Source: Escherichia phage kaaroe
Length of the DNA stretch: 64,000 nucleotides
Sequence record: MN850574.1
Direction: 5' to 3' (one strand)
The translations under genes were made by a program, and so were the position numbers. Below, piece after piece: positions 2,886 through 59,256 of the stretch; position 1 is the first letter of the stretch, and each line of letters starts with the position of its first letter. A model generated the notes under the pieces. That model saw only the letters and a list, made by a program, of their open reading frames with translations. It was not told where the DNA came from and ran no database searches.

Positions 2886-4403
2886 TTAAATCTCGATGGT
2901 TTTCGTGACATATTCGAATCGGTCGGTGTTGTAAATTTTTATTCTTTCAAGGGCATGTTTAAGAGCATAATTAAGGTGACTAAACTGTTTCTTAGCATTC
3001 TTGCTCTTTGTCTTCACCGCCAGATGATCTATAAGATCCCAGACCGTTGCAATATCCTTAGAACCATGTTTACGCAATGCACGACCGATACTCTGACGAA
3101 CGATAGTTGATTCCTTCACTGGATGACCGAAAATAACATGGTGCAAATTCTTAATTGAAACACCAGTAGAGAACACACCATAAGACGCAACACAAATGAT
3201 CCCGGTGTCACCCTCCGCCATTTTCTTAAATTCATCACGTTCTTCTGTCTTAACTCCACCGTCAATATAATAAACCTTGTTGTGTACCTTCTGTAACGCA
3301 TCATACATAAGTTTTCCGTGCTTAGTATTGCGGAACATCAGGAATACGTTTTCGCCCTTCTTAGCGAGTTTTAGCGCCAAATTGCAAGCAAACTTATTTC
3401 TTCGTGGGTTAGATGTAATATACTTGATCTCTTCCGCATATTCTCGCCCCTTAACCGCGCTACATTCCTCATCGGTATAACGAAGGAAAAGGCAGTTAAT
3501 TTTCAGTTTTGTCACTTGACCTTCTTCCATCAGGCGGTCAATACTCACGATCTTAGAAATATCACCGAAAAGCCCGACATACTGCATCATGTTAGCTTTC
3601 CCGTCACGAGGGGAACCAGTCATGCCGATCTTAAATTGGCAATGATCCATATCAGTAACGATGTTTAGCAGGTTTTTAGCAGTGGCCTTGTGACATTCAT
3701 CAACAATTACCATCCCAAATTGCTGGAACCACTCACGAGGTTGTTTACATGCAGATTGCCACGTACTAACAACGATCAGGCGATCACCTACGTGTTTACT
3801 AGTACCGCTCATGATAGTATGAATTGCTTCATAAGGAAACTGGCGATAATCAACAAAGTCATCACGCATTTGCAGCACTAGCGACGTGGTAGGAACGATG
3901 ATCAACACTTTCCCTTCGTAGTTCTCTAAGTACCAACGAGACAACATACAAGCAATCGCAGATTTACCAGCGGACGTAGGCAAAACTAACATACGGCGTT
4001 TATGATGAATACCTTCAAAGACAGCCTTTGATTGATACCAATGCGGGGTGATCCTGTTAGCACCGGAATATAATTCTAAGTCATTACACCATTTTGTAAT
4101 TTCTTCTTCTGTAACTTGTTCTTTTTCGAATAAGCGAGGATCTACCCATACGCTATAGCCCATATTTTTAGCGAAGATTCCCACGGTTTTAGTTAGGCCG
4201 ATTGGCAGCTTTCCGTTGTAATCTAAAAGACGAATACGCCCATCCCATCCACCATACTTAAATCTTTTTTGAAACCGCGCTCCCTCAACTTCAAAACTAA
4301 AATAATCTCGCATTTCTAATAAAATTGAATCGCTACATTCAATTTGAACATGGGAGTAGTTCAGAAAGTGAATTTTAATATCTTGCATAGCGAATAGCCT
4401 CAC
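2886..4403 (-). CDS. uvsW: UvsW DNA/RNA helicase (SF2)
   Basis: 505 aa; LPTSAGKS Walker A, VDECH DExH box, KLKIN.LFLRY, HLNY.LKH and overall collinearity with T4 UvsW. Confidence 0.9.
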   Translation of the reverse strand: MRLFAMQDIKIHFLNYSHVQIECSDSILLEMRDYFSFEVEGARFQKRFKYGGWDGRIRLLDYNGKLPIGLTKTVGIFAKNMGYSVWVDPRLFEKEQVTEEEITKWCNDLELYSGANRITPHWYQSKAVFEGIHHKRRMLVLPTSAGKSAIACMLSRWYLENYEGKVLIIVPTTSLVLQMRDDFVDYRQFPYEAIHTIMSGTSKHVGDRLIVVSTWQSACKQPREWFQQFGMVIVDECHKATAKNLLNIVTDMDHCQFKIGMTGSPRDGKANMMQYVGLFGDISKIVSIDRLMEEGQVTKLKINCLFLRYTDEECSAVKGREYAEEIKYITSNPRRNKFACNLALKLAKKGENVFLMFRNTKHGKLMYDALQKVHNKVYYIDGGVKTEERDEFKKMAEGDTGIICVASYGVFSTGVSIKNLHHVIFGHPVKESTIVRQSIGRALRKHGSKDIATVWDLIDHLAVKTKSKNAKKQFSHLNYALKHALERIKIYNTDRFEYVTKTIEI

Positions 4404-4458: not shown

Positions 4459-5187
4459 ATGTTTGATAAAGAATATTTCGAAGAACTCCGCGCTATTGCG
4501 GCGTCCGACGACAAAGAAGCACAGAAAACCGCTAAAACAGAATTAGCGGACTACGCGAAACAATTTGATATTAAGGTCAAAAAGACGCTCTCGCTAGAGA
4601 ACATGATCGAGTTCGTAGAGACCGAATTAACTAAACTGGCTTCCGAAATGGAAGAAGAAACTCCGGCAGAAGGAACCAGTATTAACGATCTTATTCTGGC
4701 AGCAGACACCGCAGATGATAAAGTGGTATTCGACGAAGTTGATCCGTCTCTGGTTGAAGCAATGAAAGAACCAGAACAAAAAGAAGAACCAATTACAATT
4801 GAAGTTGTAGAAGAAGCCAAACCACACACAGTACCAGTTACAATTGAAGTTGTAGATGTACCGGAAGTTAAAGTGGAATCTCCGGTAGCCAACCTTTTCT
4901 CTGACGAAGCAGATCATCGTTCCCCAGCACATGACACTGATTCATTTTGCGATCTTACTGGCTTCCGTCCGACCATTTGCTTGATCGGTGGCGGTCGTGG
5001 TTACTACTCCTGCCCGTGGTGGATTTTCGACTGGATCGTTAATACTCCAGATTGGAAGAAGTATCCAGAGCGTTTCCCGCACGCGTATGTACACGACACC
5101 CTCAAGTCACTGATCTATTATATCAAACGCGATGGGTCTGTCAAGGTGCGAGAGACTAAACATAGCCAATTCCACACACTCAAGTAA
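4459..5187 (+). CDS. Inh-like head protein (hoc-adjacent), acidic repeat region plus C-terminal WW(I/V)FD(W/E)IV motif
   Basis: 242 aa; position between uvsW and hoc as T4 inh; C-terminal motif shared with Hoc C-terminus in this window. Confidence 0.4.
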   Translation: MFDKEYFEELRAIAASDDKEAQKTAKTELADYAKQFDIKVKKTLSLENMIEFVETELTKLASEMEEETPAEGTSINDLILAADTADDKVVFDEVDPSLVEAMKEPEQKEEPITIEVVEEAKPHTVPVTIEVVDVPEVKVESPVANLFSDEADHRSPAHDTDSFCDLTGFRPTICLIGGGRGYYSCPWWIFDWIVNTPDWKKYPERFPHAYVHDTLKSLIYYIKRDGSVKVRETKHSQFHTLK

Positions 5188-54183: not shown

Positions 54184-54378
54184 ATGCAAGTTTATACCAA
54201 TAGTAATAAAGGACAAGATATTACGCCCGGAAAGATGTATGTTTTTACCCCGGCACGAGACGACGAACATCCACCGACTATCGGGTATATTGAAGATGAT
54301 GTGGGGTTTCGTATTACGATCCTTCTTGATGGTGGATGTTCTCATCTTCGCGGTGATAAATGGGAGTTAGTACCATGA
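54184..54378 (+). CDS. small protein, paralog family 1 (GCSHL motif)
   Basis: shares DGGCSHLRGDKW-type motif with the next two ORFs. Confidence 0.5.
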   Translation: MQVYTNSNKGQDITPGKMYVFTPARDDEHPPTIGYIEDDVGFRITILLDGGCSHLRGDKWELVP

Positions 54379-54620
54379 TGTATGTGATGACACCTTATAG
54401 TAACCGCAAGTATATTACACCAAATACACTGTATGAATATACACCACATGAAAGATTTGCGAATAGTGGTTATATCCGTGATGATAAGGGACACCAGATT
54501 TTTATTTGTCTTAAAAATTGTGCACACTTAGACGGTCGAACATGGACACTGATCGAAGAACCAAAACAACCTGAGAATAAAGGTCTTTGGAACGCAATTA
54601 AAAAAATCTTGAAAAAGTAG
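54375..54620 (+). CDS. small protein, paralog family 1
   Basis: ATGA overlap with previous stop; NCAHLDGRTW motif. Confidence 0.5.
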   Translation: MMYVMTPYSNRKYITPNTLYEYTPHERFANSGYIRDDKGHQIFICLKNCAHLDGRTWTLIEEPKQPENKGLWNAIKKILKK

Positions 54621-54680: not shown

Positions 54681-55016
54681 ATGAGTGTTAAAGAAGTGTT
54701 TGTTTATACCGACTATGACGGGTGCTCCTATCTCACTGCTGGAAAACTTTACCGTTGTGAGATTATTCATGGTACGCTAGGTCGAATTATGTGCGATCCT
54801 ATTACAAAATTGTGGAAAAATAATCCTAGTGAGCGAGAAACTCTTATTAACCTAGATCCAGACGGTTGTTCACATTTGGACTATAGAAAATGGCATATCG
54901 TGACACATGATGCTTATGGTATTCATCTTGCTACTAAAGAATTAACTATTGACAAGTTCAAGTTTAAAGAAATCCCGTTTGTATACTGGATTCGCAATTT
55001 GTTTAAGAAAGGATAA
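54681..55016 (+). CDS. small protein, paralog family 1
   Basis: DGCSHLDYRKW motif; start set at ATG after promoter. Confidence 0.5.
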   Translation: MSVKEVFVYTDYDGCSYLTAGKLYRCEIIHGTLGRIMCDPITKLWKNNPSERETLINLDPDGCSHLDYRKWHIVTHDAYGIHLATKELTIDKFKFKEIPFVYWIRNLFKKG

Positions 55017-55020
55017 TAAA

Positions 55021-55443
55021 ATGGAAACAATTAACGTACATGTTCGCCGTAGTAAGCTGCGTAGATTCTTCGAAACCGAAATGCGCAAAACCAATGCGAA
55101 GATCAAAGAAAAGTGCTTGAATGATGGTTATGGTGAGTATATTTTCATTCGCTTTAGTCCGCATATGATCGACCGTCTAACCGATCGTCATATCGATGAA
55201 CATAAGACAATGGAACTATTCAATAAGATAGAAACTCGTTTGCCGGAGATCTTCGACTTCCTGAAAATGGAAGACCGACCGAATCGATTAGAAATTACTG
55301 ACGGTAACATGTGGATCGGGATGACAGTAGATCTAATCGAAGAGGGTAAGCCATATCACGGTCTATGCTGCCGAATGATTATAGAGAATCCAAAACGACT
55401 GGCGGGTAAAATGTCGGCGGTTGTTTTGAAGGTAGACCAATAA
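55021..55443 (+). CDS. hypothetical protein
   Basis: 141 aa, start at internal ATG of track ORF. Confidence 0.5.
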   Translation: METINVHVRRSKLRRFFETEMRKTNAKIKEKCLNDGYGEYIFIRFSPHMIDRLTDRHIDEHKTMELFNKIETRLPEIFDFLKMEDRPNRLEITDGNMWIGMTVDLIEEGKPYHGLCCRMIIENPKRLAGKMSAVVLKVDQ

Positions 55444-55466
55444 TGGAAATTGGTTAAAAATAATGC

Positions 55467-55495
55467 TTGACTTTCTGGTGATAGGGCTATATTAT
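55467..55495 (+). promoter_or_regulatory. sigma70-type promoter TTGACT-17-TATTAT
   Basis: read directly upstream of the transglycosylase gene. Confidence 0.5.
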
Positions 55496-55529
55496 GGAAT
55501 CAGAAAGTTAAGCCAAACAGGAGAAATTA

Positions 55530-56120
55530 ATGTTAAAAGTTCTAAAAGCGATAGTATTGAGTCTGTCACTAGCCGTTGGTGCTACACACGCATCGACTAG
55601 CGCACCGATCAAAAAAGCGCCGATAGACAACTTTACACCACACCAACTAGATAATTTACATTTCGCCTATCAATACGGCGAGCAATTCGAGAAAAGCGGT
55701 AAGTTGAAAAAGTACCATCCGAATATTCGCTATAACGGAAAGGGTTTAGGTCACATCCTGGCGGGTATCGCATGGCAAGAATCAAGCGCGGGTGCAAACT
55801 TAGCACCAAAGAAAAATCATCATGCTTATGGATTATTTCAAAATTACCTTAAAACGGTGAAAGCGAAAAATGAAAAGCGCGGTGTTAAAATGAGTGATCG
55901 CCAGACTATCAACTTTATCATGAATCGCGAGGTTTCTGCATTCTACGCGATGGATGAGTTAGCATACTGGCTGGATATTCGAAACGGTAATATCAGACTC
56001 GCGCTAGCTTCTTACAATGCTGGATGGAACTATAAAGCCGGATTAGGTTATGCTGATGACGTACTAAAAAAGGCTAACCATCTAAAGAGTAAAGGCATTC
56101 TTAAGACTAAACGCTATTGA
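55530..56120 (+). CDS. secreted lytic transglycosylase (SLT domain) with signal peptide
   Basis: N-terminal signal peptide; E-S (AWQESS), GLFQ and SYNAG motifs of family-1 lytic transglycosylases. Confidence 0.75.
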   Translation: MLKVLKAIVLSLSLAVGATHASTSAPIKKAPIDNFTPHQLDNLHFAYQYGEQFEKSGKLKKYHPNIRYNGKGLGHILAGIAWQESSAGANLAPKKNHHAYGLFQNYLKTVKAKNEKRGVKMSDRQTINFIMNREVSAFYAMDELAYWLDIRNGNIRLALASYNAGWNYKAGLGYADDVLKKANHLKSKGILKTKRY

Positions 56121-56127
56121 GGAATAT

Positions 56128-56487
56128 ATGAAAAAGTTGACAATAATTGCTATGATTGCTATGATGTTCTCTGCTGGTGCGCTTGCTAGTAATGAGCGCC
56201 CTTATCCAAAGTTCGAATACAAAGGATTTGAGATCAACAAAAAGATCATTAAAACTTTCTGTGATGATGATAACATGTGTAGTGATTTTATCGCGCTCGA
56301 ACTTGATGAAGCATACAAACAAGGTCGAGACGAAAAACGAAAAAATCGAGCGTGGGATCTGAGTATTGCCAGCTTTGCTAAAACAAAACGTAACCTGTGT
56401 GATACTGCCCCTGATAAGCAATTATGCTTTGCTTATCGCGACACACTGTTAAGCCGTTTTATGGCTGGGTTGTCTTCCCGTGACTAA
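56128..56487 (+). CDS. secreted/periplasmic Cys-containing protein
   Basis: signal peptide MKKLTIIAMIAMMFSAGALA. Confidence 0.5.
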   Translation: MKKLTIIAMIAMMFSAGALASNERPYPKFEYKGFEINKKIIKTFCDDDNMCSDFIALELDEAYKQGRDEKRKNRAWDLSIASFAKTKRNLCDTAPDKQLCFAYRDTLLSRFMAGLSSRD

Positions 56488-56502
56488 TGTGAGGTTTATA
56501 TT

Positions 56503-56958
56503 ATGATTATTGATACTGTAAAGGGCGATCTCATCGCCCTGTTTAAACAAGGAAACGGTCATTTAATTCATGGTTGTAATTGTTTTCATACTATGGGCGC
56601 TGGTATTGCTGCGAAGATCGCGAAAGAGTTCCCGCAAGCGTTAGAGATTGACAAGCAAACTTCTCGCGGTAAGGTCGAAAAGCTGGGTGGGTTTAGTGTC
56701 TGGACGCATCAAGTTAATGGTTATAACTGGTGCGGGGTGAATCTCTATACCCAATTCCGACCGGGTCCAAATGCTGAATATGGTGCTATCCTGAAAGGAT
56801 TTGAGTCTCTCAATGATGTTTTTGAGGGTGCTATACAGCCTTTCTATATTCCTAAAATCGGTTGCGGTATCGGTGGCCTTGAGTGGGAATGTGTAGAAGA
56901 GATCATTAATATTGCTACTCCAGACATTAACATTGTGGTGGTTGAATATGACAAATAA
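56503..56958 (+). CDS. macrodomain protein, TARG1/DarG-like (ADP-ribose binding/hydrolase)
   Basis: motif LIHGCNCFHTMGAGIAAKIAKEFP matches the TARG1/OARD1-type signature (H-C-x-x-x-C-x-M-G-x-G-I-A...F-P); 151 aa. Confidence 0.7.
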   Translation: MIIDTVKGDLIALFKQGNGHLIHGCNCFHTMGAGIAAKIAKEFPQALEIDKQTSRGKVEKLGGFSVWTHQVNGYNWCGVNLYTQFRPGPNAEYGAILKGFESLNDVFEGAIQPFYIPKIGCGIGGLEWECVEEIINIATPDINIVVVEYDK

Positions 56959-57142
56959 AAATGATCTATATTCCGGTGATTGGGTGAAACGTCAGTCTGT
57001 AGAAAACGTAACTTGTTTTCGTTGTTTCATTGAATACAATATAAAAACCGCTCCTGTTAGTGTTCCAAAGACAGACGGGTATTATATTAAAGAACCGCAT
57101 TGCCCTAAATGTAAATGTCGATTATATTGGAGTCATCTATGA
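56948..57142 (+). CDS. small Zn-ribbon-like protein
   Basis: CxxC...CxxC pairs; start moved to internal ATG. Confidence 0.45.
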   Translation: MTNKNDLYSGDWVKRQSVENVTCFRCFIEYNIKTAPVSVPKTDGYYIKEPHCPKCKCRLYWSHL

Positions 57143-57357
57143 AGAAGCCTAATACCGCTCACATGAAGGAAAACTGCCGATGTGGTAGATGTGGTTGGCC
57201 TATTATATTCACTTGCTGTAACGACGATATGCAGCGTTTACCGTGGGGAATGTGGGATTGGTGGATGTATTGCAGCAATAAAGGTTGCGACCATCATGAA
57301 GGCGAAGGAGTCTTTCAGGAAACGCCTGATTGGGTGGAGGTGATAGAAAATGCTTGA
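57139..57357 (+). CDS. small Cys-rich protein
   Basis: CRCGRCG...CC...C..GC; ATGA overlap. Confidence 0.45.
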   Translation: MKKPNTAHMKENCRCGRCGWPIIFTCCNDDMQRLPWGMWDWWMYCSNKGCDHHEGEGVFQETPDWVEVIENA

Positions 57358-57643
57358 GACTATCATTAATCTTGTTGTGTGGACTTTTATTTTCGTTATT
57401 GTTATTATGGCGGGTATAGAGATTGTAAAACAATATCTATTGCAATCTCGAAATAAACATGTTGTGATTGATATGGACTCGCAAGGCAATAAGTTGATCC
57501 GGTTAGAAGATGGTCGGGAATATTGGGTTGGATATCCTAAAACGCTAAAAGGGTTTATCCTTGCCATGAGCATTAACATCTTTTTTATTGGTATCTGGAC
57601 TTATATCGGTTTAGGTCTTGCTGGATTTTTGGAGATTAATTAA
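57350..57643 (+). CDS. small membrane protein
   Basis: 97 aa, two TM helices. Confidence 0.45.
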   Translation: MLETIINLVVWTFIFVIVIMAGIEIVKQYLLQSRNKHVVIDMDSQGNKLIRLEDGREYWVGYPKTLKGFILAMSINIFFIGIWTYIGLGLAGFLEIN

Positions 57644-58239
57644 TGGCGCAATTATATTTCTACTATGCATCTATGAACGCTGGCAAATCAACTTCTCTGT
57701 TACAAAGTGCTTATAACTATACCGAACGTGATATGCGAGTATTAATTCTTAAGCCAGCGATTGATAATCGAGATTCAGAAAGTGAAGTTGTTTCCCGAAT
57801 TGGTCTAAGTGCTCCAGCGATCACCTTCACTGAATCGGATGATCTTTTCGACTTGGTTTATCGTGAATCGTTAGGTAAGCGTAGACCAGATCGCTGGCGT
57901 CCTGATGCTGTATTTGTAGATGAAGCCCAATTTATGACTAAAGAGCATGTTTTAGGCTTGTGTGCGCTTGTTGATGATGCAAATATCCCTGTACTGTGCT
58001 ATGGCCTTCGCACTGACTTTCAGGGCAATCTATTTGAAGGATCTGCGGCATTGATGGCATTTGCTGATAAACTGGTCGAAATGAAGGGTATTTGTCATTG
58101 TGGCAAGAAAGCAACAATGGTCCTTCGTGTAGATAAAGAGGGTAATGTTATTCGCGATGGTGCTCAAATCGAAGTTGGTGCAGAGGATAAATATGTTTCT
58201 GTGTGCCGTAAACATTTTATTGATGGCACTACCAACTAA
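57643..58239 (+). CDS. tk: thymidine kinase
   Basis: YFYYASMNAGKST P-loop, FVDEAQF, CHCGKKAT Zn-site motifs. Confidence 0.95.
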   Translation: MAQLYFYYASMNAGKSTSLLQSAYNYTERDMRVLILKPAIDNRDSESEVVSRIGLSAPAITFTESDDLFDLVYRESLGKRRPDRWRPDAVFVDEAQFMTKEHVLGLCALVDDANIPVLCYGLRTDFQGNLFEGSAALMAFADKLVEMKGICHCGKKATMVLRVDKEGNVIRDGAQIEVGAEDKYVSVCRKHFIDGTTN

Positions 58240-58266
58240 GAGTTAATCATAAATAAAGCCCCAGAT

Positions 58267-58274
58267 TATAAATA
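58267..58274 (+). promoter_or_regulatory. T4-type late promoter motif TATAAATA (plus strand)
   Basis: exact motif about 34 nt upstream of ATG 58308. Confidence 0.45.
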
Positions 58275-58307
58275 TAACTGAATATTTTAAATCTGGGGGA
58301 ATGACTT

Positions 58308-58610
58308 ATGTCATTTATTCGTAAAACTCTAACAGCGGCAATATGCTTGACTGCGGTCGGAAGTGTCAGTGCTGATCAATATGATCCAACTGGTGACTTT
58401 ACTGATTATTTCGACGGTGCAATGATAGTATATGTAAACAAAATATCTCCTTCCATTGAAACCAGCCAGAAATTTCATGCCCATATTATGAAGATGTATG
58501 CTCGTAGTAAATGTATGGATTCTAAGCAGTGTTTTATTATGGGGGAATATGCCGCACAACAGTTTGTTATGTTGCATAATATGGAGAATAGAGAACATGA
58601 AATTCATTGA
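58308..58610 (+). CDS. secreted protein with signal peptide
   Basis: MSFIRKTLTAAICLTAVGSVSA leader. Confidence 0.5.
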   Translation: MSFIRKTLTAAICLTAVGSVSADQYDPTGDFTDYFDGAMIVYVNKISPSIETSQKFHAHIMKMYARSKCMDSKQCFIMGEYAAQQFVMLHNMENREHEIH

Positions 58611-58995
58611 TTTTCTAAAGACGTCCGAAGAGGGGAAAGCTAATAAAGTTGACCGCTTTATCGGTGAATGTCTGATGAGTGTTACTTATATGCATTCTGC
58701 GCATTTTGGGGTAACTGGTCCTAGATCTTATGCAAAACATAAGGCTCTAGAAGAGTTCTATCTTGAAATGCAAGAATTGGTTGATGATTTCACTGAAACC
58801 AATATTGGGATCACTGGTCGTTATCAGCCAACGTTGGTCGTCCGCAAGGAGATTAGCGAAATTGCCTATTTGCAAGAGTTAACGCAAATGGCTAGTGAGA
58901 TTTATAATGATGTTGATAGCTCGTTACAGAGCGTTTTAGACGATATCAAAGCTCTATGTTTTAAAACAATTTATAAACTCACTCGACTGTCTTAA
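58597..58995 (+). CDS. hypothetical protein
   Basis: 133 aa; start at internal ATG overlapping previous stop. Confidence 0.45.
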   Translation: MKFIDFLKTSEEGKANKVDRFIGECLMSVTYMHSAHFGVTGPRSYAKHKALEEFYLEMQELVDDFTETNIGITGRYQPTLVVRKEISEIAYLQELTQMASEIYNDVDSSLQSVLDDIKALCFKTIYKLTRLS

Positions 58996-59228
58996 TGTTA
59001 GTCACCGTGGGATGCATACCAGAAGTAAAAGAATACTAGCATTAACACAACTATTTGGCTTCCTCATACTTTCGCGTGTTCAATTACTGCCGAATCGGAA
59101 GACCCGTCTAAGACGAGGAAGGGTTATCATTGGAAAGGGATGGTGAATTGGTTACTATGTTTAACTAGTTTAGCAAAGGTCGATTCAAACACTACTATAC
59201 AAATGGACGTGAATAAAATATAATCAAA

Positions 59229-59256
59229 AGCCATCCGAAAGGGTGGCTTTTTCGTT
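59229..59256 (+). terminator. rho-independent terminator
   Basis: hairpin AGCCATCC-GAAA-GGGTGGCT plus T-run. Confidence 0.7.

What the first reader, a model, noticed from the sequence alone, without database searches (positions are those of the whole stretch)
55467..56487. Own-promoter unit encoding a signal-peptide lytic transglycosylase and a secreted partner protein
Seen in sequence: the SLT-domain protein (ES, GLFQ, SYNAG motifs) and the adjacent 119-aa protein both have cleavable-looking signal peptides and sit behind a sigma70-like promoter, separate from the M15 endolysin and the gp5 lysozyme. Inference: a Sec-exported murein-remodelling pair acting from the periplasm, perhaps for superinfection exclusion or lysis timing, or acquired from a bacterial secretion-system locus.
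Basis: partly seen in the sequence, partly recalled or inferred. Interest (0 to 1): 0.45.

Follow-up and report, generated by a model that had tools for sequence, protein, structure and literature searches.

The report
Phage T4 vs.1–vs gene pair
These two genes are the already catalogued vs.1 and vs genes of a T4-type coliphage: an exported cell-wall-cutting enzyme and a small exported helical protein that databases still label, probably misleadingly, as a cytoplasmic "valyl-tRNA synthetase modifier".

Summary
The window is an RB49-like Krischvirus, 99% identical to published genomes. ORF 55530-56120 is the orthologue of T4 vs.1: an SLT/GH23 lytic-transglycosylase domain with the catalytic Glu kept in 79 of 79 relatives. 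ORF 56128-56487 is the orthologue of T4 vs, annotated "valyl-tRNA synthetase modifier".

Both proteins carry canonical Sec signal peptides. This holds across their families (Vs.1 71/79, Vs 82/86, background 11%). Some Vs homologues carry a lipoprotein box instead, and all have four invariant cysteines. The promoter at 55467-55495 coincides with one annotated in phage GEC-3S. No terminator follows vs, so the promoter also serves tk.4/adfM, tk and rI.

vs lies downstream of vs.1 on the same strand in 55 of 79 phage loci, abutting it in 46. vs.1 also occurs alone in many phages.

An origin in a bacterial secretion-system locus is not supported. Roles in superinfection exclusion or lysis timing were not tested.

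The SLT similarity has been published since 2006, and the periplasmic signals are noted in one GenBank record. The feature is therefore already known. What remains open is the conflict between predicted export of Vs and its 50-year-old cytoplasmic label. A 2025 transposon screen found T4 vs to be the gene most needed in minimal medium.

The parts
55467..55495 (+). sigma70-type early promoter (-35 TTGACT 55467-55472, 17-nt spacer, -10 TATTAT 55490-55495), with an A-rich stretch upstream
   Evidence: The same site is annotated as promoter/-35/-10 in GEC-3S HE978309 (locus 3068-3096, which maps to window 55467-55495).
55465..55513 (+). 12/13-nt inverted repeat (GCTTGACTTTCTG ... CAGAAAGTTAAGC) bracketing the promoter. 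It would form a hairpin only in read-through RNA coming from regB.
   Evidence: The fold of 55380-55540 has z = -5.3 against shuffles; sequences checked. Function unknown.
55519..55524 (+). Shine-Dalgarno of vs.1 (AGGAGA). It contains GGAG at 55520-55523, the RegB endoribonuclease recognition motif.
   Evidence: RegB specificity is taken from the record notes. Cleavage at this site is inference.
55530..56120 (+). vs.1: 196-aa pre-protein. Predicted signal peptide is residues 1-21 (55530-55592). The mature 175-aa, 19.9-kDa, pI 9.9 protein is an SLT/GH23 lytic transglycosylase. Catalytic Glu84 codon at 55779-55781; GLFQ at 55830-55841; SYNAG at 56010-56024.
   Evidence: Pfam SLT and phrog_600 E=4e-60. 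RB49 and T4 annotate it as vs.1. AF2 pLDDT 85, and the top Foldseek hits are MltD/Slt/Slt70. E84 is kept in 79/79 relatives. Masses.
56119..56122 (+). Shine-Dalgarno of vs (GAGG), overlapping the vs.1 stop codon TGA (56118-56120). This suggests translational coupling.
   Evidence: In 46 of 55 other phages the two ORFs abut or overlap by -4 to +7 nt.
56128..56487 (+). vs: 119-aa pre-protein. Predicted signal peptide is residues 1-20 (56128-56187). The mature 99-aa, 11.6-kDa protein is four helices with invariant Cys45, Cys51, Cys91 and Cys100 (codons 56260, 56278, 56398, 56425).
   Evidence: phrog_1256 E=1.8e-33. Annotated vs in RB49, GEC-3S and T4. Alignments A1/A2. AF2 model. Signal-peptide, lipobox and Cys counts.
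56503..59251 (+). Rest of the same early transcription unit: tk.4/adfM macrodomain (56503-56958), small ORFs, tk (57643-58239), rI antiholin (58308-58610), rI.-1, and the first strong terminator at 59226-59251.
   Evidence: No terminator-like site with a convincing T-run lies between vs and tk.4.

Best explanation
The locus is the Krischvirus copy of the T4-type early gene pair vs.1-vs.

Vs.1 is made early and exported by the Sec pathway. Signal peptidase I cuts it after about residue 21. It then acts in the periplasm as a small soluble family-1 (GH23) lytic transglycosylase on the host sacculus.

Vs is translated from the same mRNA, probably coupled to vs.1, and is likewise exported. In Karamvirus it is exported as a lipoprotein. 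It folds into a four-helix domain of about 11 kDa, most likely stapled by two disulfides. I propose that Vs works in the envelope together with, or as a modulator of, Vs.1, rather than in the cytoplasm.

What is shown computationally: homology, fold, conserved catalytic residues, export signals and synteny. What comes from T4 data in the literature: early expression, and a fitness defect in minimal medium.

What is inferred: actual export and cleavage, muralytic activity, disulfides, any Vs.1-Vs contact, and the biological purpose of the wall remodelling during infection.
For: Identity: the window is 99% identical to Sf20, RB49 and GEC-3S, with the genes annotated vs.1 and vs. T4 has the same order regB-vs.1-vs-tk.4...tk-rI.

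Enzyme:
- Pfam SLT is above its cut-off.
- E84 79/79, Y162 79/79, G165 79/79, S161 78/79 and N163 78/79 in IMG/VR relatives.
- AF2 pLDDT 85, with best PDB folds MltD, Slt, Slt70, Cj0843 and LtgA at probability 0.97-1.0.

Export:
- Signal-peptide features in 14/14 Vs.1 and 9/9 Vs from named phages.
- 71/79 Vs.1 loci and 52/54 Vs loci pass, against 74/673 other ORFs; 82/86 Vs database proteins pass.
- Lipobox LSG|C in the Karamvirus Vs.
- Four invariant Cys in 59/59 aligned Vs; 45 of 47 distinct Vs have exactly four.
- The Berthold GenBank record independently notes periplasmic signals for both proteins.
- His-tagged full-length T4 Vs is insoluble in the cytoplasm (PMC8076793).

Linkage: Vs lies downstream on the same strand in 55/79 vs.1 loci, abutting in 46 and never upstream. 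The SD of vs overlaps the vs.1 stop codon.

Expression and phenotype in T4:
- Both are 'early RNA / middle protein' (PMC9697503 supplement).
- Both are non-essential on LB.
- Both carry about 10-fold fewer transposon reads than their neighbours in liquid LB: vs 26.6 and vs.1 22.6, against tk.4 290, regB 179 and vs.3 652.
- Both drop in M9-glucose: vs log2FC -2.19 with adjusted p 0; vs.1 -0.87 with p 0.0055 (10.1101/2025.11.20.689424).
Against: - No experiment on export, cleavage, activity or interaction was found.
- Signal peptides were called with a home-made heuristic, not SignalP.
- The Foldseek E-values for Vs.1 are weak (0.01-0.3), and a PDB sequence search finds nothing.
- vs.1 occurs without vs in 24/79 loci and in Ackermannviridae, Felixounavirus, Aeromonas and Vibrio phages, with no consistent secreted neighbour. 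Vs is therefore not an obligate partner.
- Both mature proteins are basic (pI 9.9 and 8.3), so there is no charge complementarity.
- Tight gene spacing is usual for T4 early genes in general.
- The vs.1 insertion phenotype could be a polar effect on vs.
- The four Cys could in principle bind zinc in a cytoplasmic protein. I could not read model coordinates to check the geometry.
- The classical literature (Muller & Marchin 1975/1977, cited) assigns the vs gene a cytoplasmic target, valyl-tRNA synthetase.
Confidence: 0.6

Rival explanations
1. Classical reading. Vs is the cytoplasmic tau factor that binds host valyl-tRNA synthetase and alters its properties. Its adjacency to vs.1 is incidental early-gene packing. 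Vs.1 is an unrelated periplasmic enzyme.
For: The annotation is carried in T4, RB49 and hundreds of other records. The biochemical literature is cited in PMC8076793. The HIDEN-SEQ authors read the minimal-medium defect of delta-vs as translation-related. From my own memory, unverified here: tau was reported at about 10 kDa, and mature T4 Vs is 11.0 kDa.
Against: A cytoplasmic role conflicts with several family-wide features: signal peptides in 82/86 members, lipobox variants, four invariant Cys, and embedding among other secreted-looking genes. The original sequence record X04567 calls the ORF only 'ORF 60.9', so the vs label was attached later. I could not reach the papers that justify that assignment. 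If tau is about 10 kDa, that fits the processed form (11.0 kDa) better than the unprocessed one (13.1 kDa), which itself implies export.
Confidence: 0.25
2. Vs is a dedicated periplasmic inhibitor or 'safety catch' of Vs.1, analogous to T4 Spackle inhibiting the gp5 lysozyme. Without it, the early-made transglycosylase would damage the infected cell prematurely.
For: vs insertions are more deleterious than vs.1 insertions in M9 (-2.19 against -0.87). That is the pattern expected if losing the inhibitor is worse than losing both genes. The order is fixed as enzyme then small partner, with coupled translation. T4 precedent: Spackle is a small periplasmic helical protein that blocks a phage lysozyme (PMC7677548 and PMC7650644, listed).
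Confidence: 0.2
3. Vs.1 is an auxiliary lysis enzyme of the SAR (signal-anchor-release) type. It is tethered inactive in the inner membrane and released at lysis, rather than being a cleaved soluble early enzyme.
For: The N-terminal h-region is rich in small residues (AIVLSLSLAVGAT). The gene lies in the same unit as the antiholin rI. Felixounavirus homologues are annotated 'putative lysin'.
Against: The hydrophobic core is only about 12-13 residues and is followed by an AXA site, both here and in T4. That is typical of cleavable signal peptides and too short for a membrane span. The gene is early, not late. The phage has its own M15 endolysin. T4 vs.1 is dispensable for plaque formation.
Confidence: 0.07
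4. A murein-opening enzyme recently captured from a bacterial type III/IV secretion or conjugation locus (VirB1/IpgF-like).
For: Specialised secretion-system transglycosylases are likewise small, Sec-exported SLT proteins (established knowledge, not tested here).
Against: No tblastn hit in 72,556 plasmids at E<=0.01. Homologues occur in more than 2,000 phage records across several families. Synteny is conserved with T4. The closest cellular relatives found are Helicobacteraceae chromosomal genes, and the H. pylori one checked is flanked by glyS and gpmI.
Confidence: 0.03

Closest known systems
Bacteriophage T4 Vs.1 (ORF 61.4; phrog_600)
   Same: It is the orthologue. The phrog_600 match is full-length (E=4e-60) and tblastn identity is about 46%. 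It holds the same position after regB and before vs, and has the same signal peptide and the same ES/GxFQ/SYNxG motifs.
   Different: The window protein is 15 aa longer, with an extra basic linker (STSAPIKKAPID) after the signal peptide. It is preceded by an 86-nt spacer with its own promoter, whereas T4 vs.1 starts 7 nt after regB.
Bacteriophage T4 Vs, 'valyl-tRNA synthetase modifier' (ORF 60.9; phrog_1256, PF26829)
   Same: Same family (phrog_1256 E=1.8e-33). Same position, same signal peptide, same four Cys, G66 and the C-terminal GL motif.
   Different: Only about 29% identical, so RB49-type and T4-type Vs barely detect each other by tblastn. The function named in the annotation has never been tested for any non-T4 member, and it conflicts with the predicted export.
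Family-1 lytic transglycosylases (E. coli Slt70, P. aeruginosa Slt and MltD; Pfam SLT, GH23)
   Same: Same catalytic-domain fold, catalytic Glu-Ser motif, and GLxQ and AYNxG motifs. All are periplasmic.
   Different: Vs.1 is a single minimal domain with no superhelical, LysM or lipoprotein module. It is very divergent: no PDB hit by sequence and Foldseek E of about 0.01. It has a subfamily-specific N-terminal F-x-x-x-Q-x-x-N-L-x-x-A-Y-x-x-G helix. It is phage-encoded and early.
T4 Spackle (gp61.3) with the gp5 lysozyme domain
   Same: A phage early, Sec-exported, small helical periplasmic protein acting on a phage muralytic enzyme. This is a functional analogy for the Vs/Vs.1 idea (papers listed).
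   Different: No detectable sequence or fold similarity in the searches run. Spackle's target is virion-borne and encoded elsewhere. Any Vs-Vs.1 interaction is unproven.
Helicobacteraceae chromosomal secreted SLT-like proteins (for example the H. pylori ORF between glyS and gpmI, L175 3947-5014)
   Same: The closest cellular homologues found. hhalign gives probability 98.9% and E=2e-17 over the whole Vs.1 domain, including the N-terminal motif and the catalytic Glu. They also have a signal peptide.
   Different: Only 23-33% identical. The H. pylori protein has a 140-residue low-complexity tail, sits in a housekeeping context, and has no Vs-like neighbour in the locus read.

Membership tests
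SLT / GH23 family-1 lytic transglycosylase | Match to the Pfam SLT (PF01464) model above its gathering score | tested here: met
   26.1 bits against a cut-off of 21.3, E=6.8e-6, residues 76-167.
SLT / GH23 family-1 lytic transglycosylase | Catalytic glutamate in an E-S motif, plus the GLxQ and AYNxG motifs | tested here: met
   E84-S85, G101-L-F-Q104 and S161-Y-N-A-G165 are present. E84 is kept in 79/79, Y162 in 79/79 and G165 in 79/79 relatives.
SLT / GH23 family-1 lytic transglycosylase | Goose-lysozyme-like all-alpha catalytic fold | tested here: met
   AF2 pLDDT 85. The top 10 Foldseek PDB hits are all lytic transglycosylases (MltD, Slt; Slt70, Cj0843 and LtgA follow at ranks 15-18) with probability 0.97-1.0 for the first 16. 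However, E is only 0.01-0.3 and TM 0.38-0.48.
SLT / GH23 family-1 lytic transglycosylase | Non-hydrolytic cleavage of MurNAc-GlcNAc giving 1,6-anhydroMurNAc | not testable with these tools
   Needs a muropeptide assay.
T4 vs.1 orthologous group (phrog_600) | Full-length profile match and conserved position between regB and vs | tested here: met
   phrog_600 E=4.1e-60 over residues 6-193. Synteny in RB49, GEC-3S, T4, Melville, 4S, KP179 and CC31.
T4 Vs family (phrog_1256 / PF26829, 'valyl-tRNA synthetase modifier') | Profile match, four conserved Cys, position directly after vs.1 | tested here: met
   phrog_1256 E=1.8e-33 over residues 1-118. C45, C51, C91 and C100 are invariant in 59 sequences. 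46/55 loci abut vs.1.
T4 Vs family (phrog_1256 / PF26829, 'valyl-tRNA synthetase modifier') | Binds and modifies host valyl-tRNA synthetase | not testable with these tools
   Rests on 1970s T4 biochemistry, cited. The link to this particular ORF could not be checked.
T4 Vs family (phrog_1256 / PF26829, 'valyl-tRNA synthetase modifier') | Cytoplasmic location, as that function implies | tested here: not met
   Prediction only. Signal-peptide features in 82/86 members, lipobox in the Karamvirus members, and four invariant Cys.
Sec / signal peptidase I secretory pre-proteins | Basic n-region, uncharged hydrophobic core of 9-14 residues, small residues at -3 and -1 | tested here: met
   Vs.1: MLKVLK-AIVLSLSLAVGA-THA|S. 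Vs: MKK-LTIIAMIAMMF-SAGALA|S. The heuristic passes only these two of 12 neighbouring genes. The family-wide rate is 71/79 and 52/54 against an 11% background. SignalP was not available.
SAR endolysins | Uncleaved, weakly hydrophobic N-terminal membrane span of about 16-20 residues; late expression; acts as the lysis enzyme | tested here: not met
   The core is only 12-13 residues and is followed by an AXA site. The promoter and the T4 RNA are early. A separate M15 endolysin exists.
Secretion-system-associated specialised transglycosylases (VirB1 / IpgF / EtgA type) | Encoded within a T3SS, T4SS or conjugation gene cluster | tested here: not met
   The gene sits in a phage early region. No plasmid homologue was found. 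The one cellular homologue whose locus was examined lies in a housekeeping context.
Proteinaceous lysozyme / transglycosylase inhibitors (Ivy, PliC/MliC, PliG, Spackle) | Fold or sequence similarity to a known inhibitor family | tested here: not met

The most novel reading that the evidence does not exclude
The protein that every T4-type genome labels 'valyl-tRNA synthetase modifier' is really an exported, disulfide-bonded periplasmic protein (a lipoprotein in some phages). It functions with the early transglycosylase Vs.1 in remodelling or protecting the host cell wall. On this reading, the strong minimal-medium defect of T4 delta-vs is an envelope phenotype, and the ValRS link is either an ORF mis-assignment or a post-lysis binding artefact.
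Probability: 0.3. Interest if true: 0.6.

Novelty: already known. Interest (0 to 1): 0.35.

Why it matters
As a genome feature this is ordinary. The genes are annotated in dozens of near-identical genomes. The SLT similarity of vs.1 was published in 2006 (PMC1524935). At least one GenBank record already notes the periplasmic signals.

It matters in a narrower way. vs.1 is found in more than 2,000 phage records, yet no function is known for an early, exported wall-cutting enzyme that is neither the endolysin nor a virion protein. Its frequent neighbour carries a historical functional label that sequence features contradict. A 2025 screen found that neighbour to be the T4 gene most needed in minimal medium. 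Settling where Vs resides would either correct an annotation propagated to hundreds of genomes or reveal how a signal-peptide protein reaches a cytoplasmic synthetase.

Tried and rejected
- PDB sequence searches with profiles of both families found nothing.
- The Vs alignment was too diverse to seed search for related loci. I used Vs.1 loci instead and searched them locally with an HMM.
- The exhaustive HMMER search with the Vs profile found only 27 cluster representatives, all about 77-134 aa, so no distant cellular relatives turned up to hint at function.
- Miller 2003, Valerie 1986 and Muller & Marchin 1975 are not held in the paper library. The evidence tying the tau factor to ORF 60.9 therefore could not be read. 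The 1986 GenBank record shows only that the ORF was unnamed then.
- Model coordinates are not exposed, so I could not measure Cys-Cys distances to separate disulfides from a zinc site.
- I considered mirror-tree co-evolution between Vs and Vs.1 and rejected it as uninformative, because all genes of one phage genome share a phylogeny.
- My first motif regexes for the Vs.1 catalytic residues were too strict. I replaced them with hmmalign column counts.
Full report
**What the window is.** Region 54900-57000 is 99.0-99.7% identical to Shigella phage Sf20, RB49, GEC-3S, Phi1 and some 50 other Krischvirus genomes. In RB49 and GEC-3S the two ORFs of the finding are annotated vs.1 ('conserved hypothetical protein') and vs ('valyl-tRNA synthetase modifier'). 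They are flanked by regB upstream and by tk.4, three small ORFs, tk, rI and rI.-1 downstream. T4 itself has the same order regB-vs.1-vs-tk.4...tk...rI. The finding is therefore the RB49-type copy of a long-catalogued T4 early gene pair.

**Checking the observation.**
- The ORFs are as stated: 55530-56120 (196 aa) and 56128-56487 (119 aa).
- The first matches Pfam SLT above its gathering score (26.1 bits against 21.3; E=6.8e-6) and PHROG 600 over its full length (E=4e-60).
- The M15 endolysin exists at 51888-52277 (Peptidase_M15_4, E=4e-12). gp5 maps to about 40.0-41.8 kb on the other strand through the RB49 annotation.
- The promoter TTGACT-17-TATTAT at 55467-55495 matches 10 of 12. Matches of that quality are common in this AT-rich DNA (32 found, 24 +/- 4 expected in 8 kb). 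This one, however, occupies the 86-nt regB-vs.1 spacer and is the promoter annotated in GEC-3S.
- 'Own-promoter unit' is overstated. No convincing terminator follows vs. The terminators that bound the region are at 53387-53411 and 59226-59251. The promoter is one of several nested early promoters, and it also serves tk.4, tk and rI.
- In most other T4-type genera vs.1 starts 1-22 nt after regB with no room for a promoter. The separate promoter is thus a Krischvirus detail.

**Signal peptides.** SignalP was not available. I scored a basic n-region, an uncharged hydrophobic core and a -3/-1 small-residue site.
- In the window, only vs.1 and vs pass among 12 neighbouring genes. rI, whose T4 orthologue has an experimentally cleavable signal peptide (PMC8385771, listed), falls just below my strict threshold, so the test is conservative.
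- The feature is conserved far beyond this phage. It is present in 14/14 Vs.1 and 9/9 Vs from named phages of different genera. It is also present in 71/79 Vs.1 and 52/54 Vs ORFs in IMG/VR loci, against 74/673 (11%) of other same-strand ORFs, and in 82/86 Vs-family database proteins.
- Most of the failures are truncated ORF calls or N-termini without a basic residue.
- Karamvirus Vs proteins replace the AXA site with a lipobox, FALSG|C. A lipobox makes sense only for an exported protein.
- Predicted mature products are 19.9 kDa (pI 9.9) and 11.6 kDa (pI 8.3). In T4 they are 18.8 and 11.0 kDa.

**Vs.1.**
- An alignment of 26 relatives, and hmmalign of 79 IMG/VR relatives (69 distinct sequences), show E84 in 79/79, Y162 in 79/79, G165 in 79/79, and S161 and N163 in 78/79. 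The active site is therefore under selection.
- The AlphaFold model is confident (pLDDT 85). Its best PDB matches are all lytic transglycosylases: MltD, Slt, Slt70, Cj0843 and LtgA, with probability 0.97-1.0. E-values are weak (0.01-0.3), and a profile search of PDB sequences finds nothing. This is a divergent, minimal, single-domain member of family 1.
- tblastn finds it in 2,085 phage records. These include Straboviridae, Ackermannviridae (PhaxI), Felixounavirus (next to rIIB), and Aeromonas and Vibrio phages.
- No plasmid carries a relative.
- The closest cellular relatives found are Helicobacter, Wolinella and other Campylobacterales chromosomal proteins at 23-33% identity. The H. pylori one is a secreted 355-aa protein between glyS and gpmI. 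hhalign relates it to the whole Vs.1 domain (probability 98.9%, E=2e-17).
- None of this supports capture from a secretion-system locus.

**Vs.**
- The family is tiny. It has 62 clusters by profile-seeded search and only 27 representatives at 50% identity among 1.84 billion proteins, all single-domain and about 77-134 aa.
- Six positions are invariant in 59 sequences: C45, C51, C91, C100, G66 and G114.
- The model gives four helices (35-45, 49-68, 76-86, 97-116), with pLDDT 76-91 over the mature domain.
- C45/C51 bracket the helix 1-2 turn. C91/C100 bracket the loop before helix 4.
- Two local disulfides are the simplest reading for an exported protein. A Zn(Cys)4 site cannot be excluded, because I could not read the coordinates.

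**Linkage of the two genes.**
- In 79 IMG/VR loci holding vs.1, a Vs ORF lies downstream on the same strand in 55. It abuts vs.1 (-4 to +7 nt) in 46, lies 141 nt away in one (a truncated ORF call), and 471-1216 nt away in eight. It is never upstream.
- In the window the Shine-Dalgarno of vs overlaps the vs.1 stop codon.
- The other 24 loci have vs.1 alone, with no consistent secreted neighbour. Vs.1 can evidently function without Vs.
- In several genera one or two further secreted-looking genes (phrog_4957, phrog_6298) follow vs and lead up to rI. The Berthold record annotates the whole run as carrying periplasmic secretion signals.

**What is known experimentally (T4).**
- vs.1's SLT similarity was reported by Nolan et al. 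2006, who cite earlier PSI-BLAST matches (PMC1524935).
- Time-resolved omics class both genes as 'early RNA / middle protein' (PMC9697503 supplement).
- The HIDEN-SEQ preprint (10.1101/2025.11.20.689424) calls both non-essential on LB.
- In its LB versus M9-glucose competition, vs is the most depleted gene (mean 26.6 to 5.0, log2FC -2.19, adjusted p 0). vs.1 is also down (22.6 to 11.9, log2FC -0.87, p 0.0055, adjusted p 0.155).
- Both already have about ten-fold fewer reads in LB than tk.4 (290), regB (179) or vs.3 (652).
- The shared behaviour fits a common function, but polarity of vs.1 insertions on vs is an alternative.
- The same preprint identifies tk.4, the next gene, as AdfM, an anti-DarT macrodomain.
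- N-terminally His-tagged full-length T4 Vs went to inclusion bodies (PMC8076793). That is compatible with a pre-protein that needs export and oxidation, but it is weak evidence.

**The annotation conflict.** 'Valyl-tRNA synthetase modifier' implies a cytoplasmic target. Every sequence feature of the family points the other way. The 1986 sequence record labels the ORF only 'ORF 60.9 (AA 1-115)' and vs.1 'ORF 61.4', so the name was attached later. I could not read the papers that justify it. From memory, unverified: the tau factor was about 10 kDa and vs mutants were selected in vivo. If so, the size fits the processed form, while the in vivo phenotype argues for a cytoplasmic action. I cannot resolve this and give the classical reading about 25%.

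**Most likely mechanism.** Vs.1 is an early, Sec-exported, signal-peptidase-processed soluble lytic transglycosylase acting on the sacculus of the infected cell. Vs is co-translated and co-exported, and acts in the envelope, probably in the same process. It could be a modulator or restrainer of Vs.1 (about 20% for a true inhibitor) or an independent envelope factor. The purpose is not established. Candidates are wall remodelling that keeps slowly growing, nutrient-limited infected cells productive, preparation for lysis, or dealing with superinfecting phage.

**Verdict.** The feature itself is an already known, already annotated gene pair, and the acquisition hypothesis fails. Residual interest lies in the unknown role of a very widespread early phage transglycosylase and in the likely mislabelling, or unexplained topology, of Vs.

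Noticed in passing
window 56503-56958 (+): The gene after vs is the tk.4 orthologue, a macrodomain protein (Pfam Macro E=6e-7; NCBIfam DarG antitoxin E=1.8e-13). T4 tk.4 was recently named AdfM, an anti-DarT2 counter-defence factor (HIDEN-SEQ preprint).
   Followed up: partly
window 55465-55513 (+), within the fold of 55380-55540: A 12/13-nt inverted repeat (GCTTGACTTTCTG / CAGAAAGTTAAGC) brackets the vs.1 promoter. The region folds much better than shuffles (z = -5.3). The hairpin would exist only in read-through RNA from regB. Function unknown.
   Followed up: partly
window 55520-55523 (+): The vs.1 Shine-Dalgarno contains GGAG, the motif cut by the RegB endoribonuclease, which is encoded by the gene immediately upstream. 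T4 vs.1 has GAGG instead. This may be a way to limit Vs.1 translation to the earliest minutes.
   Followed up: no
window 54184-54378, 54375-54620, 54681-55016 (+): Three consecutive small ORFs upstream of regB are paralogues (36-42% identity) sharing a C-[SA]-H-L-x-x-x-x-W motif. They are annotated only as hypothetical in RB49 and GEC-3S.
   Followed up: partly
L004 1824-2225, L005 1746-2174, L006 1830-2255, L007 1740-2132, L008 1737-2156, L009 1830-2255 and 2264-2554: In Gelderlandvirus, Karamvirus, Jiaodavirus, a Serratia phage and Acinetobacter T4-like phages, one or two more signal-peptide-bearing genes of unknown function (phrog_4957, phrog_6298) follow vs. In the Acinetobacter phages they run straight into rI, forming a cluster of periplasmic proteins. 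The window and T4 lack them.
   Followed up: partly
L098-L177, e.g. L175 3947-5014: The closest cellular relatives of phage Vs.1 found are secreted proteins conserved across Helicobacter, Wolinella and other Campylobacterales chromosomes. The H. pylori one lies between glyS and gpmI, has a long low-complexity tail, and does not reach Pfam SLT at E<=0.001. It is nevertheless clearly homologous by hhalign (probability 98.9%).
   Followed up: partly
window 57350-57643 (+): A 97-aa protein with hydrophobic segments at both ends (phrog_16027, unknown function) lies just upstream of tk. It is probably a small inner-membrane protein in the same early unit as vs.1, vs and rI.
   Followed up: no
L018 (X04567) 4821-4842: The 1986 T4 sequence record also predicted a -35/-10 pair just upstream of ORF 61.4 (vs.1), inside the 3' end of regB. 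It left both vs.1 and vs unnamed (ORF 61.4, ORF 60.9).
   Followed up: no
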